DNA from: Octopus vulgaris
Lineage: Eukaryota
Length of the DNA: 64,000 nt
Direction: 5' to 3'
Assembly: GCA_951406725.2 (NCBI GenBank)
Contig: OX597818.1
Coordinates: 140,120,001-140,184,000 of the forward strand
Shown here: positions 2,239 through 44,398 of the stretch, one piece after another
Layout of the letters: every line of letters starts with the position of its first letter
Position numbering within the stretch: position 1 is the stretch's first letter
Notes under the pieces: model-generated
The model's input: only the letters and a program-made list of their open reading frames with translations
Database searches by the model: none
Told to the model about the DNA's origin: nothing
Translations under genes and position numbers: made by a program

Positions 2239-2283
2239 ATTTGACATGTTTCGGTTCTTGAAAAAACGAACCTTATCAAAAAT
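2239..2283 (-). ncRNA. Minimal type I hammerhead ribozyme motif, U3-A8 variant core
   Basis: Minus strand reads attt-TTGATAA-ggttc(gttttttcaa)gaacc-GAAA-catgt-C-aaat: stem I 4 bp, stem II 5 bp, palindromic stem III ACATGT, GUC cleavage triplet. Lies in a ~250-bp cassette between two (TA)n tracts. Confidence 0.6.
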
Positions 2284-2425
2284 ATTATAAAAAGTGCGAT
2301 AGAAAAGTTCATAGTTGTTTCTTACTGGTCTCAATACAATCCATGTGGTGGTGTTTTGTCGGTAGTTGGTATAATCGCTATATTATAGTTGCGTGTAGTA
2401 AAGAAGTTCGTTATTGTTTCTTGCT

Positions 2426-22468: not shown

Positions 22469-22774
22469 TAGACATACTCGTAGATACGCACACATACCCA
22501 GTCATATGTCTATGACCCTACCTATCATTTCTTCCATTATCCACTTTCGTGAACTATTCCTTGTCCATCCTTTTTCCTTTCTCTCCCCACACTTCACCTT
22601 TTCCCACTGTATTGTCTTCCCCAACCTTCTTTCGCTTCGTCTTTCCCTACACTTTCTCCTCTTTGTACAACCCTTCCTTTTCCCCCATTCTTGGCCATCA
22701 TTTTACTGCGTGACTACTAATCTAGTGAGATGGGCCTTTCTCAGTTCCTCGTCATAGCATTTAATTCTTTTGGA

Positions 22775-23055
22775 CACACTGCCGTATGTCTGACACACGA
22801 CTCACAAAGTGTATGTTCCACAGCAAACCGGCAGAAAGCAAACGCGTGCAAAGTGGGCAGAAAAGCGCTTGAAGGATACTTATAAAACCTCGCTGAAGGG
22901 CTTTCAGATCAATCCCCATACAAAGAAAATGCAAGCACAAGACCACAATGCCTGGCGAAGCTTTGCCAACAGAGGTGTCACCTCCTATGAACACAACAGG
23001 ATTGCTGGGCACAAAGAAAACGCGAGACATGCAGGTCCAGAGCAATTTACTTGCG
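22775..23055 (+). pseudogene. RTE-clade LINE 3' coding fragment
   Basis: KRLKDTYKTSLKGFQIN...AQDHNAWRS resembles the RTE/BovB C-terminus (KR.KD.LK..L...I....W...A.DR..WR). Confidence 0.7.
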
Positions 23056-23059
23056 TTTA

Positions 23060-23965
23060 ATCCCAGAAGACTGCCAATGCCCATGTATTCATTGTCCTGT
23101 CCTGATCTTGTTTTTCCATTGATTTTACTCTCCACAATCAATTTGATTTTCCTTAGGTATTCTCGCCTACTGGTCTCCATCATTTCGCTCACCTTCAACA
23201 TTATTAATTCTCTCACCGTTGGGTAGTTCTATACTGTCAGATAACAATATTGTATCTCTTTTATGGTAAACATCCCACCCTTATTTATTATGATTTCCTT
23301 TTCTATCTCGATATCCTTACTTAGTAGTTGCACTGCTGAAACCAGACCATTTATTTCACGCACACAAACTCCCGAAGATATTTACGACATCCATATACAA
23401 CAACTGATTCAACTATTCTTCACTTTTCAAGGTGTACTCTGATGTCACTTTCCGTATCATCTGTGTGAGGAGCATAATGCAAATCACAAATAGCTATGGT
23501 AACACAATATCTCCCGGAAATATGCCCTTCTTAACGTTAACATTCACCAAAAATTCTCCTCATGATGTTAACTCAGTATTCCAAATGATATTAACTCAGA
23601 GTTTAAACTCTTCAATGTTCTGATAAAATTTAAAATGTTATCAGACCTCTGAACCGACTAAAGAATTTCCTAAGTTTAGGAATAGGGGATCATGTTATAA
23701 GCTTTCCTATAATCGATCCAGGCCAAACCCAGATAAGTATGTTTTGTCTTAAAATTGTTCAGTACTTTATCGTCTATCAGAAGTTGATCTTTTGTCCCTC
23801 ATCATTTCTTCCTACATCCATTCTGTTCCATTGACAGCTGGTCCCTCATTCATTTCAAGGAGATCATATACACAATTAGATATTATTCCTGTCATCAGGT
23901 TCCACAACAAAAGTTGGCAGGAGATTGAACGTTAATTATCTATTGCATTACTTTTACCAGGCTAT
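23060..23965 (-). pseudogene. Degenerate R4/Dong-like LINE reverse transcriptase fragment
   Basis: Minus strand encodes EQNGCRK..GTKDQLLID..LGLAWIDYRKAYNMIP, with many disablements. Confidence 0.7.
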
Positions 23966-25338: not shown

Positions 25339-26292
25339 TGTGCACAAACAGACAAAACGATCAAGGTTTCATTTTGTTGTTTACTTACGCGACATGTTGA
25401 TGCCCTGTCGTTCATGAATATGTTGGCCTGGTACAGGCATTGATCTTGGGCTGCTATAATAAACCCTTCTGTTTCGGATTTTAAACTAGAAGATACTAAC
25501 CATTGAAGGGTAAGGTCTTTGCCAACATCGGCATTATTAGCTCTCTTTGGGGATTTGCCATTGAGAGGTTTTTCTTGCCATTTATACGTAAGAATACCTC
25601 AGACAGCAGTTTTAGCACGTGTTTTTATACGCCTAGCTTTTTCTGTAGTTGTTTCCAGTACGTCTAATTCTGAGATTTGTCGTATTTGGAATTCACTTAG
25701 ATAATTCTTTGCCTGTTTTATTACTGAGTATGATGTTTTCCTGTTTTCATGCTTTAAGACTAGTTTTAACATCCACTCATCAGAGTTTTTCAGGTAGGTG
25801 TTTAGGCCAATTGTGGCAATCTTCATTGTTAATTCCAACTGCAAAAGTCCATGGCCACCCTCTTTTCTTGACAAGTATAGTCGTTCTATATCTGCCTTAG
25901 TGTGGTGCATTCTAAGCATTGTCAACAATTTTCGTATTTTTCTGTCAAGATTACATATTTCGGTAATTGACCTGTTAATGATATTGAAACTATAAGTCGC
26001 TACCGTTATCGCTAAAGTATTGATCACTTCGATCCTGTTTCTTGCATTCAACTCTGTCTTGAGTATTGCCCTTACTCCTCGATAGCATTCTCTCCTGATC
26101 CTTTCCCTCATCACTGAATGTTTGCTTCCATCACCTTCAAATTCCTCTAGATATTTGTAGCTCTGCTTATAACTCTTTTATGACGTTCTGCTGTTCAAGA
26201 ATATTGTTAGATGTTTCTGTCATTTTTCCTTTGATAAATGTAGCTTTTTCACATTTATCGATGCCAAATTGCATCCTGGTGTCATCAATGAA
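25339..26292 (-). pseudogene. Second R4/Dong-clade LINE fragment (RT end, thumb, start of zinc knuckle)
   Basis: DDTRMQFGIDKCEK, YKYL, ORF 25599-26114 (ELNARNRIEVINTLAI..YSF..LDRKIRKLL..H..ADIERLY..RKEGG.GL) and KSETEGFIIAAQDQ, matching the copy at 20421-21300. Confidence 0.88.
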
Positions 26293-31428: not shown

Positions 31429-32052
31429 TGTATATAAGTATGTATATATATATATATATATATATGTATATGTATATACATACATACACACATTTATATA
31501 TATGTACATACGTATATATATGAACGCTAAAAATTTGCGTAGTACGCACATTTTATAAACAATACGGTCAAAAGAGATGTCTCAAGATTTCAATCACTAC
31601 TTCTTCTTCTTCTTCTTCTTCTTTTTCTTCTTCTTCTTCTTCTTCTTCTTCTTCTTCTTCTTCTTCTTCTTCTTCTTCTTCTTCTTCTCGTTCTTCTCCT
31701 TCCCTACCAAGAATTCACAACGACCTCGAACCCACAAGAGGATACATGAGAGACAGGGACAGGCAGAAACAAGGAAAATGCCTCTTGTGTTTTAATACTA
31801 AGCAAATATTCTTTAAACACTTTTCTTTTAATTTTTTCCAAATTTAAATTTCCAAAATTTAACTCGTGTGTTCCTTTTCAACCTTGTACATATAAATATA
31901 TATATACATATATGTACATATATATATATATATATGTGTGTGTGTATGTATATATATATATATATATGTAGTTCCCGGGTTGATACGGGGTTAACCACAG
32001 TAAGTAAGGTACTCAATACATAGCAGAGTAAAATTAATTTATTATATAGAAG

Positions 32053-32104
32053 GAGCTTCTACAGGACTAGTACTGTTTCATTCAAGAGAAATCTTCAGAA
32101 AGCT
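32053..32104 (-). ncRNA. Type I hammerhead ribozyme (minus-strand copy)
   Basis: agcttt-CTGAAGA-tttctcttgaat-GAAA-cag-tactagtc-ctgtA-gaagct. Confidence 0.75.
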
Positions 32105-32223
32105 TCAGGAAGCTCCTTGGTAGGGAAGGAGAAGAACGAGAAGAAGAAGAAGAAGAAGAAGAAGAAGAAGAAGAAGAAGAAGAAGAAGAAGAAGAAGAAA
32201 AAGAAGAAGAAGAAGAAGAAGAA

Positions 32224-32276
32224 GAGCTTCCTGAAGATTTCTCTTGAATGAAACAGTACTAGTCCTGTAGAAGCTC
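32224..32276 (+). ncRNA. Type I hammerhead ribozyme (plus-strand copy)
   Basis: gagcttc-CTGAAGA-t.ttc(tctt)gaa.t-GAAA-cag(tactagtc)ctg-TA-gaagctc: 7-bp stem I, canonical core, GUA cleavage after 32269. Confidence 0.8.
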
Positions 32277-32286
32277 CTTCTATATA

Positions 32287-32336
<50 letters not shown>

Positions 32337-32907: not shown

Positions 32908-33790
32908 TTATCGTGCAGTTTGCATATTAAGAAGCTTTTGGAATTTTTCAATAAAAAGATTCTCCTTGTTGATTCTTTCTTGTGTAGAGTTTATGTCTTT
33001 ACATTGATAGAAAGAGAATATACGAAATTTGAGATTTTTATTTCCAGCACAAGAGTCTATGTGGCTACTGAGTTGAATTTGACGGTATTGTGGGAGATTT
33101 ATATGTTCTTTATGGACTTCTAGTCTTCTCCGTAAAGGAAGACTCGTCTGTCCGAAATATTTGTGTCGGTAACATGCGCATATAAGGACATAAATTAGGT
33201 TCTCGGAGGAACAAGAAAAGTTGGTCTTGATTTTAAACTTTGTTCCTTGTTTGAATGAAAATTCAGAACCTTCAAGTTTGAAGATGCAGGTACCACAGTT
33301 AGGGTGTGCACAGTTTTTAACTGATGGGAGTGGATGTGGTGTGTGTAGTTTGGCATTTGTTAAGAATTGTTTTCAATGATTTATGTTGACTTTTGCATTT
33401 AAGAATTTTATGTGTATCGATAATATTTTTCATTTTCGGGTCCATGGACAGTAAGGGGTGGTTTTGTATGATTGTGGTGTATGCTTCGATGTTTTGGGGG
33501 TTGTGGATAGGTATGAATGGAAGTATTTTGAGGTTGGGTGTGTTACTGTGTTGGGTGGTTTTCGGTGTGTTATTGTCGAGTTCCTTGGCACGTTTTATTC
33601 CATAGTCTATGAGTGTGGAGGGATATTGGTGTTGTAATAGTTTTTTTTTAGGTCTTGAAAGCGTATTTCTTGGGTGGTTGAGTCCGAGACAATGGTGCAA
33701 ATCCTTTTAGCTAAGTTGAAGGGGATATTTATCTTGGTGTGTTTTGGGTGGCATGAACTGAAGATGAGGTATTGTTGTGAGTCTGTCTCA
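32908..33790 (-). pseudogene. Penelope-like RT C-terminus and GIY-YIG endonuclease (frameshifted)
   Basis: TDSQQYLIFSSCHPKHTKINIPFNLAKRICTIVS (PLE thumb); KNCAHPNCGTC; FSCSSENLIYVLICACYRHKYFGQTSLPLRRRLEVH...SHI...ERINKENLFIEKF..LLN; stop at 32908. Confidence 0.9.
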
Positions 33791-43404: not shown

Positions 43405-43660
43405 GTATATATATCAAATGCACTCAAAAACAAGAAGGAAGGAAAAGCTGTTTTACGTTTAGAGCAAAGCTCTTCTTCAGGAATAGGAGACAGAGGAAAG
43501 TCATTCATGTGATTTGTAAAAATATTTTTTCCAGAGAGCAGTTATTGTTTAGAGAAACTTATGTCTTGTTCACGATAGATATGAAAACAAGAGTATTCTC
43601 TAAATTTGTTCCATTACACATACATACATACATACATACATACATACATACATACATACA

Positions 43661-43730
<70 letters not shown>

Positions 43731-43742
43731 TATATATATATA

Positions 43743-43980
43743 CTTTATTTCAAAGCAGCAGAAAATTCAACAAAACCTGTTACTCTGACTTTCACGTTCC
43801 CGTTCGTCGGACAGTTTTTGCTAAAATAGAACCGATGTCCTGTCCGACGAACGGGAACGTGAAACTCAGAGTAACAGGTTTTGTTGAATTTTCTGCTGCT
43901 TTGAAATAAAGCATATTACTCTACCCCTGGTATTTGAGTACTCTTTCTTCCACCTTGTTTCACATTTATGTGTTTACTCC

Positions 43981-43982
<2 letters not shown>
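43743..43982 (+). mobile_element. Non-coding Penelope pLTR-like cassette with 72-bp inverted duplication, embedded in (TA)n
   Basis: Arms 43743-43814 and 43840-43911 (1 mismatch, 25-nt spacer); each arm carries a hammerhead-like motif. Confidence 0.75.
43839..43878 (+). ncRNA. Minimal hammerhead ribozyme variant (CCGACGA core)
   Basis: cctgt-CCGACGA-acg(ggaa)cgt-GAAA-ctc(a)gag-TA-acagg. Confidence 0.65.
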
Positions 43983-44020
<38 letters not shown>

Positions 44021-44257
44021 AAATAATATATATATATGCATATAAACACACATTCATGTACATATCTACATATATATGTATATATATGTGCGTATATGGG
44101 CACAGGATGTCAAAGGAAATGTGAACAAAATGAGAAACGAGAACACAAGAAACAAAACCATGGAAAAGGAACTTCTTTTTCGAACAAAAGGAAACAGATT
44201 GAGAAACGAGACAAGGTAGAGTAATATGCATTATTAATAAAGCTGCAAAGACATCAT

Positions 44258-44302
44258 AAAAACTGTTACTCAGTTTCACGTTCCCGTTCGTCGGATAGTT
44301 TT
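44258..44302 (-). ncRNA. Minimal hammerhead variant in a related pLTR-like cassette (~44098-44317)
   Basis: aaaactat-CCGACGA-acgggaacgt-GAAA-ctgagtA-acagtttt, followed by gcatattactctacc as in the 43.9-kb cassette. Confidence 0.6.
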
Positions 44303-44313
44303 GCTTGAGAATC

Positions 44314-44398
<85 letters not shown>

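What the first reader, a model, noticed from the sequence alone, without database searches (positions are those of the whole stretch)
43743..44317. Three CCGACGA-core minimal hammerheads within 600 bp, two forming a 72-bp palindrome
All three share CCGACGA-acg(ggaa)cgt-GAAA, although the third cassette is clearly diverged elsewhere and has a different stem I (aaaactat/acagtttt vs cctgt/acagg) and stem III. Conservation of a non-canonical U4C core across subfamilies, with pairing retained in stem I, suggests a functional variant ribozyme. The 1-3-nt stem III loop implies dimer-dependent cleavage. Clustering suggests a TA-tract insertion hotspot.
Basis: partly seen in the sequence, partly recalled or inferred. 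Interest (0 to 1): 0.75.

Follow-up and report, generated by a model that had tools for sequence, protein, structure and literature searches.

The report
Penelope retroelement ends with variant hammerheads
The three motifs are the broken-off ends of two insertions of a common jumping gene, each carrying a small hammerhead-shaped RNA motif with one unusual core letter shared by about two thousand copies in this genome; the copies here are likely dead, and the parent element's motif likely cuts itself only slowly, if at all.

Summary
The three cores are real, but they are not three independent ribozymes. Cassettes 1+2 are one insertion of a Hydra-clade Penelope-like retrotransposon: a 5'-truncated end plus the inverted, tail-less copy typical of the class (59 of 100 sampled copies). 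Cassette 3 is an older sister subfamily. Longer copies join the motif to an RT + GIY-YIG ORF with Hydra signatures. The U4C core is the source-element state (2,020 exact copies; U4 copies at CpG-decay level), whereas all 26 published Hydra rows have U4. An unrelated 9,062-copy repeat also carries C4. Against function here: copy 1 has a stem III-breaking change, copy 3 a stem I mismatch, the palindrome would sequester the motif, and only 2 of 100 copies begin at the predicted cut. Cleavage is untested. The scan noted this CCGA family before on other DNA (e1-10343035, e1-9868392). Verdict: known element class, minor new core variant.

The parts
43615..43742 (.). (TACA)n/(TA)n tract, left flank of the young insertion
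   Evidence: sequence
43743..43839 (-). Copy 1: inverted, 5'-truncated, tail-less copy of subfamily A; ends at end-site 1
   Evidence: 96.8% to the 3' end of the ORF-bearing copy L091; 58 of 59 inverted copies in the sample end at this site
43777..43814 (-). Hammerhead motif 1 (C4 core; C15.2>G at 43789 breaks stem III)
   Evidence: laid contigs mostly read the family base at 43789 (table 3)
43840..43982 (+). Copy 2: 5'-truncated 3' end of subfamily A with full tail
   Evidence: 98.6% to best other copy; two discrete 3' ends in the family
43840..43877 (+). Hammerhead motif 2 (intact family sequence; predicted cut after A43873)
43912..43982 (+). 71-nt 'tail' between end-site 1 and end-site 2; in a tandem copy it is followed by a short leader and the ORF start
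   Evidence: L116
43983..44089 (.). (TA)n and TA-rich tract between the two insertions
   Evidence: sequence
44090..44213 (-). 3' fragment of a third repeat family (C), fused to copy 3; its rearranged hammerhead-like motif is not included in this fragment
44214..44312 (-). Copy 3: older sister subfamily B, 5'-truncated, tail cut short
   Evidence: 92% to best other copies
44259..44302 (-). Hammerhead motif 3 (C4 core; A.C mismatch in stem I at 44296; 2-nt shorter stem III arm; predicted cut after 44267)
44318..44395 (.). (TA)n tract, right flank
   Evidence: sequence

Best explanation
The cluster is two insertions of truncated ends of a Hydra-clade Penelope-like retrotransposon into TA tracts, whose family carries a minimal hammerhead motif with C instead of U at position 4; that motif likely cuts slowly at best and only as a dimer or with protein help, and the three copies here are likely inactive. 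Shown: copy number, two fixed 3' ends 71 nt apart, head-to-head inversion as the usual layout, link to an RT + GIY-YIG ORF, C4 in the source elements, damage to copies 1 and 3. Inferred: the element's endonuclease cut a TA tract, reverse transcription started at the two internal sites on mostly uncut RNA, both cDNAs stopped just upstream of the motif and were joined head to head (copies 1+2); this happened in the TA flank of the older copy 3. Inferred: the motif was kept by selection in the source lineage, either as a weakened ribozyme or as an RNA structure used by the element's protein.
For: Copy number 2,020 vs control 0. 3' ends pile up at two sites; 59 of 100 tail-anchored copies have an inverted copy within 390 nt, 58 of the 59 tail-less; 72 of 93 scored tail ends run into TA. 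L091 is continuous from endonuclease ORF through a 1.2-kb 3' UTR to the motif; L117 and L119 show ORF-bearing copies with an inverted motif at the 5' end. RT fold (Foldseek best E 8e-9; VIA Z 15.7, with yeast TERTs at 15.3-15.4); GIY-YIG fold (I-TevI Z 8.9, rmsd 2.3, 89 aligned; next T4 EndoII 6.9, UvrC 5.8). Hydra signatures RWK, DKT, CxCx5C, CxxC/CxH are in the ORF pieces. Stems match published Hydra motifs. C4>T is no commoner than the other CpG changes (9/8/8/5 of 100; 13/10/16/7 of 100; tallies by hand, tests). Motif 36/38 identical between subfamilies A and B against 24/34 just downstream (Fisher p 0.01). Only 2 of 100 copies start within 1 nt of the cut, 83 span it, as for the Anolis element, where uncut RNA is the main substrate and the ribozyme needs the protein (PMC11167929).
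Against: No cleavage data either way. The motif is not more conserved than the tail (64/71, p 0.49), and the A-B comparison is one pair with only 6 B rows, drawn from a set biased to U4. In the tail-anchored sample T4 is 10 of about 43 usable cores against 6, 3 and 4 for the other CpG changes (not significant), so a small U4 source lineage is not excluded. No intact full-length copy was found; the ORF was read from several broken copies. Pfam and PDB sequence searches gave no significant hit for the ORF. No tree was built, so the clade call rests on motifs. Subfamily B was not linked to its own ORF. Three inverted arms do begin exactly at the cut, though stem I microhomology explains them equally well.
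Confidence: 0.75

Rival explanations
1. U4C is a fully functional natural variant: the family motif cleaves efficiently as a dimer in tandem transcripts and is selected for that.
For: All other core positions are canonical in the majority copies of both subfamilies; stem III arms are self-complementary, predicted homodimer -7.4 kcal/mol for copy 2; C4 also dominates an unrelated family (72 of 100); a U4C viroid ribozyme kept enough activity for infectivity (passage in PMC3088659).
Against: The same passage says U4C lowers activity considerably in vitro; no tertiary contacts are evident to offset it; stem II is 3 bp without G10.1-C11.1; 2 of 100 copy ends at the cut against about 4 expected from an even spread; PLE minimal hammerheads are weak even with U4 (PMC4209133).
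Confidence: 0.2
2. U4C killed the ribozyme once in a source element; the motif is a vestige that rode along because transposition does not need cleavage.
For: Ribozyme mutants do not affect insertion in vitro in the Anolis element; most copies derive from uncut RNA; the tail is as conserved as the motif.
Against: The core and both stems stayed almost unchanged across subfamilies whose flanks diverged by about 30%, loop-3 changes keep the arm symmetric, and C4 arose again in family D, which has both a U4 and a C4 subfamily.
Confidence: 0.3
3. The three-copy cluster is itself a functional unit (host-domesticated dimer ribozyme or hairpin RNA) or marks a unique hotspot.
For: An independent neighbour within 500 bp has a chance of about 0.0005-0.0014 per copy, and other close tail-to-tail pairs appear in the lists (C1:115922302/115922724; C1:175479833/175480563), so local re-insertion is above chance.
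Against: 0.3-3 such pairs are expected genome-wide by chance alone; the palindrome is the usual layout; copies 1 and 3, the only two on one strand, are both damaged and have unlike stem III arms; copies 1 and 2 would pair with each other.
Confidence: 0.04

Closest known systems
Hydra-clade Penelope-like elements and their hammerheads (Craig et al. 2021, PMC8557442; section 11, passages, and supplement parts seen)
   Same: C-terminal GIY-YIG, RWK, DKT, CxCx5C linker, (TA)n targets, inverted 5'-truncated copy (noted for Penelope-13_HM), tail at one end only; stem I ctgt/acag as in Hydra-2_aMil; stem III actc-n-gagt as in Hydra-2_aMil, Hydra-1/2_aJap, Penelope-3_HM, Penelope-16_HM; U before GAAA as in many rows.
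   Different: C4 instead of U4 (26 of 26 Hydra rows have ctga, but their descriptor demanded it); very short stem II; 1.2-kb 3' UTR and 71-nt tail (30-40 nt described); not the listed Hydra-1_Obim family, whose motif and protein differ.
[quoted passage not shown]
   Same: Short stem I, tiny palindromic stem III, thousands of solo truncated copies, pairs on opposite strands 100-700 bp apart, dimer design.
   Different: No U4C variant in the text read (variant reported there is U3-A8); consensus G10.1-C11.1 and long stem II absent here.
Poseidon PAc of Anolis (Frangieh et al. 2024, PMC11167929; parts 1-2 of 4 read)
   Same: Two internal RT start sites bounding a tail near the pLTR/ORF junction; AT-rich targets; uncut RNA as main template.
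   Different: Different clade; there the sites lie inside the ORF, here upstream of the ATG; its ribozyme was shown to cleave with protein help, this one is untested.
U4C viroid hammerhead (Ambros and Flores 1998; seen only as a passage and reference in PMC3088659)
   Same: Same core substitution, natural.
   Different: Single viroid variant with tertiary contacts, not a fixed state of a high-copy retroelement family.

Membership tests
Penelope-like element (EN+) | Single ORF with RT followed by C-terminal GIY-YIG endonuclease, linked to this 3' end | tested here: met
   in longer copies of subfamily A, not in the window
Penelope-like element (EN+) | 5'-truncated copies with inverted copy at the 5' end and an optional tail at one end | tested here: met
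   59 of 100; 58 of 59 inverted arms tail-less
Penelope-like element (EN+) | Partial tandem (pLTR) layout with the 3' end placed before the next ORF | tested here: met
   one tandem array, L115/L116; there the upstream piece starts downstream of the motif
Hydra clade | RWK motif, DKG changed to DKT, CxCx5C linker, CxxC and CxH in the endonuclease | tested here: met
   ORF pieces
Hydra clade | Placement in the RT phylogeny | not tested
   no tree built; motifs and visual match to the supplement alignment only
Hydra clade | (TA)n insertion preference | tested here: met
   28 of 28 tail ends in L002-L030, 72 of 93 in the wider sample; TATA starts 2.9% of window positions
Minimal type-I hammerhead | Core C3 G5 A6 G8 A9 G12 A13 A14, A15.1-U16.1, H17 | tested here: met
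   all three copies; majority state
Minimal type-I hammerhead | U4 | tested here: not met
   C4 in all three and in the family majority
Minimal type-I hammerhead | Stems I-III can form; stem III palindromic | tested here: met
   met for copy 2 and the family; broken at 15.2-16.2 in copy 1, mismatch in stem I of copy 3; hammerhead fold is not the predicted lowest-energy monomer fold
Minimal type-I hammerhead | Covariation of stems within the family | tested here: inconclusive
   subfamilies are nearly invariant in the stems; compensatory differences are visible only across the published Hydra table
Minimal type-I hammerhead | Site-specific self-cleavage | not testable with these tools
   indirect test (copy 5' ends at the cut) negative: 2 of 100
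Non-LTR retrozyme | Head-to-tail tandem monomers of 150-400 nt with canonical type-I hammerheads | tested here: not met
   copies are head-to-head or solo, variably truncated ends of a coding element

The most novel reading that the evidence does not exclude
U4C is a selected, attenuating hammerhead variant that arose independently in at least two high-copy retroelement families of this genome, tuning cleavage down (dimer- or protein-gated) so that the RT can copy mostly uncut RNA; thousands of such CCGA ribozymes are invisible to CUGANGA-based searches and the two subfamilies of family D (U4 and C4) give a natural matched pair for testing what PLE hammerheads do.
Probability: 0.3. Interest if true: 0.55.

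Novelty: new variant of a known kind. Interest (0 to 1): 0.3.

Why it matters
The palindrome, cluster and dimer design are described features of Penelope-like elements. What is left is a fixed change at a normally invariant ribozyme position in thousands of copies and in two unrelated families. If the C4 motif cleaves, it widens the natural hammerhead consensus and shows that standard searches undercount these motifs; if it does not, it is a natural example of a Penelope family spreading without a working ribozyme. Either result bears on the open question of what PLE hammerheads are for, but it is a specialist point.

Tried and rejected
Rfam at gathering thresholds: 0 matches in the window, expected for minimal variants. 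First assignment to the Neptune clade dropped after reading the Hydra definition. Pfam scans and PDB sequence searches gave nothing significant; fold searches settled the domains. Expression: no RNA holder on record was listed; contigs of three guessed-RNA runs and one other run cover the family sequence but cannot show ends or strand and none is locus-specific: no verdict. First truncation test was biased because loci had been chosen for holding the core; repeated on a tail-anchored sample, where alignment to one subfamily A reference under-extends (peaks at -38 and +16 are partly subfamily differences), so 83 of 100 spanning the cut is a floor. Subfamily B majority showed T4 because those loci came from a U4-selected search; one search corrected this (C4 83 of 100). 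Literature: 8 searches found no report of a U4C core in PLEs; Lunse et al. 2017 (the most likely place) and Ambros and Flores 1998 are not held, and one supplement file of PMC4209133 was not searchable, so 'not in print' is unproven.

Full report
Observation. The three 21-nt cores are at the stated places and strands, and cassettes 1 and 2 form a 72-bp inverted repeat with one mismatch. The predicted cut of cassette 2 follows A43873. Rfam finds nothing. The genome is 2.8 Gb in 227 contigs; that it is an octopus is my inference from size and microsatellite content and from earlier scan notes, not a call result. The exact core occurs 2,020 times, the reversed control 0 times.

What the copies are. 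The best 30 matches to cassette 2 are short pieces between TA tracts that share a fixed 3' end and have variable 5' ends. Across the loci then held, 3' ends pile up at two sites 71 nt apart. In the first 100 of 1,396 copies found by a pattern downstream of the motif, 59 have an inverted copy within 390 nt upstream, and 58 of those 59 stop at the first site without the tail. The window's palindrome is this layout: 43743-43839 is the inverted tail-less arm, 43840-43982 the tailed arm, and 72 bp is simply the distance from the first end site to where the tailed arm was truncated. Craig et al. describe an inverted 5'-truncated copy and a one-sided tail as standard for Penelope-like elements (passages), and Frangieh et al. 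show that the tail is the stretch between two internal RT start sites.

The parent element. Walking upstream gave copies with a 1.2-kb 3' UTR preceded by an ORF end, and further copies with the RT. In a tandem array the tail is followed by about 65 nt and the ORF's ATG. The 549-residue piece has 643 relatives (best 57% identical), folds as an RT, and its C-terminal domain folds as a GIY-YIG nuclease. Sequence-profile searches were blank. The published Hydra hammerheads share this motif's stem I and stem III sequences. No intact full-length copy was seen and no tree was built.

Cassette 3. It belongs to an older sister subfamily (best other copies 92%, against 98.6% for cassette 2), and its tail is cut off and fused to the 3' end of a third repeat family. 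So the stem comparison in the finding is not covariation.

The U4C core. With the seven core positions left free, 68 of the first 100 of 1,774 copies read CCGACGA; changes at the four CpG positions number 9, 8, 8 and 5. For the B-type stem III, 83 of the first 100 of 561 have C4, with 13, 10, 16 and 7. These hand tallies do not differ from equal rates, so canonical-looking U4 copies (193) are CpG decay and the source elements carried C4. The tail-anchored sample has a slight excess of T4 (10 against 6, 3, 4; not significant). All 26 Hydra rows in the published table have U4, but their search demanded it. An unrelated 220-nt TA-flanked repeat (family D, 9,062 pattern matches) has C4 in 72 of the first 100 and a true U4 subfamily (26), so C4 has been amplified at least twice. 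Between subfamilies A and B the motif is 36/38 identical against 24/34 just downstream (p 0.01) but 64/71 in the tail (p 0.49) (39 A and 6 B rows), which suggests constraint without proving catalysis.

Does it cut? In the literature seen, PLE minimal hammerheads are inactive as monomers and weak as dimers, the Anolis one needs its protein and is dispensable for insertion in vitro, and U4C lowers activity considerably but left a viroid infectious (passage; section 8 read). Here the stem III arm of the family can form a homodimer (-7.4 kcal/mol) while the hammerhead is not the lowest-energy monomer fold. If cut RNA were the usual template, copies would start at the cut: 2 of 100 do, about 4 are expected from an even spread, and at least 83 span it. 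At this locus, copy 1 has lost the 15.2-16.2 pair, copy 3 has the stem I mismatch, and any transcript over copies 1 and 2 would fold into a 72-bp hairpin (-131 kcal/mol) that buries the sense motif. Sequencing runs gave no verdict on expression.

Hotspot. TA targeting is the clade's habit (26 of 27 families; 28 of 28 and 72 of 93 tail ends here). A second independent copy within 500 bp is expected 0.3-3 times per genome by chance; two more tail-to-tail pairs in the lists suggest some excess, which fits re-insertion into the TA flanks of older copies.

Verdict. A known class of element and ribozyme motif, in its usual broken layout. The one new point is the C4 core as the source state, not found in 8 paper searches, with the most relevant paper unavailable. 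The scan had already noted it on other DNA. More unusual is the rearranged hammerhead-like motif of the neighbouring family C, which lies outside the fragment present here and which the scan has also recorded.

Noticed in passing
window 44090-44213 (3' fragment only); full motif in L064:1622-1727, L182:1565-1670, L135:1167-1273, L202:1459-1564: Family C carries hammerhead blocks in the non-circular order cleavage-site block, GAAA block, CUGANGA block; 3,183 pattern matches, control 0. On 22 copies of several subfamilies stems III and I each have 3 of 5 pairs changed on both sides; whole structure 88% paired against 43-56% when slid (related sequences, so not a probability). The stem II that I drew is weak (G.U pairs, competing pairings), so the exact wiring is open. 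Resembles type-SGC ribozymes (PMC10085705, sections 13-14 read). Earlier scan notes describe it and tie it to Naiad elements; that link was not tested here.
   Followed up: partly
L150-L179 (e.g. L151:1501-1532): Family D: about 220-nt (TA)n-flanked repeat with a fixed 5' start and a loop-less minimal hammerhead; 9,062 matches; has both a C4 (majority) and a U4 subfamily with co-segregating flank differences. No ORF link seen.
   Followed up: partly
L230-L329: 5' truncation points crowd just upstream of the motif (51 of 100 between -31 and -60 from the cut; only 4 extend beyond -100). Could be an RT stop or a transcript start inside the pLTR; partly an alignment effect.
   Followed up: partly
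window 32047-32310 and 32911-33372: A second head-to-head pair of canonical CUGA hammerhead-like motifs (cores at 32076-32098 minus, 32231-32253 plus) around a GAA tract, with a minus-strand GIY-YIG-like ORF fragment nearby.
   Followed up: no
window 2250-2285 (minus): Hammerhead-like motif with the U3-A8 core pair; similar U3-A8 motifs in L046, L066, L160.
   Followed up: no
window 44213/44214 and L077 upstream of 1500: Junctions that join the tail of an A/B-type element directly to a C-type element, suggesting template switching or insertion into tails.
   Followed up: no
L091:1090-3900: Degenerate telomere-like hexamer arrays inside a chromosome-size contig, next to a family C copy.
   Followed up: no
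window 22764-23228 and 25602-26177 (minus): Fragments of a LINE-type RT ORF; no clear host exon seen among long ORFs of the window.
   Followed up: no
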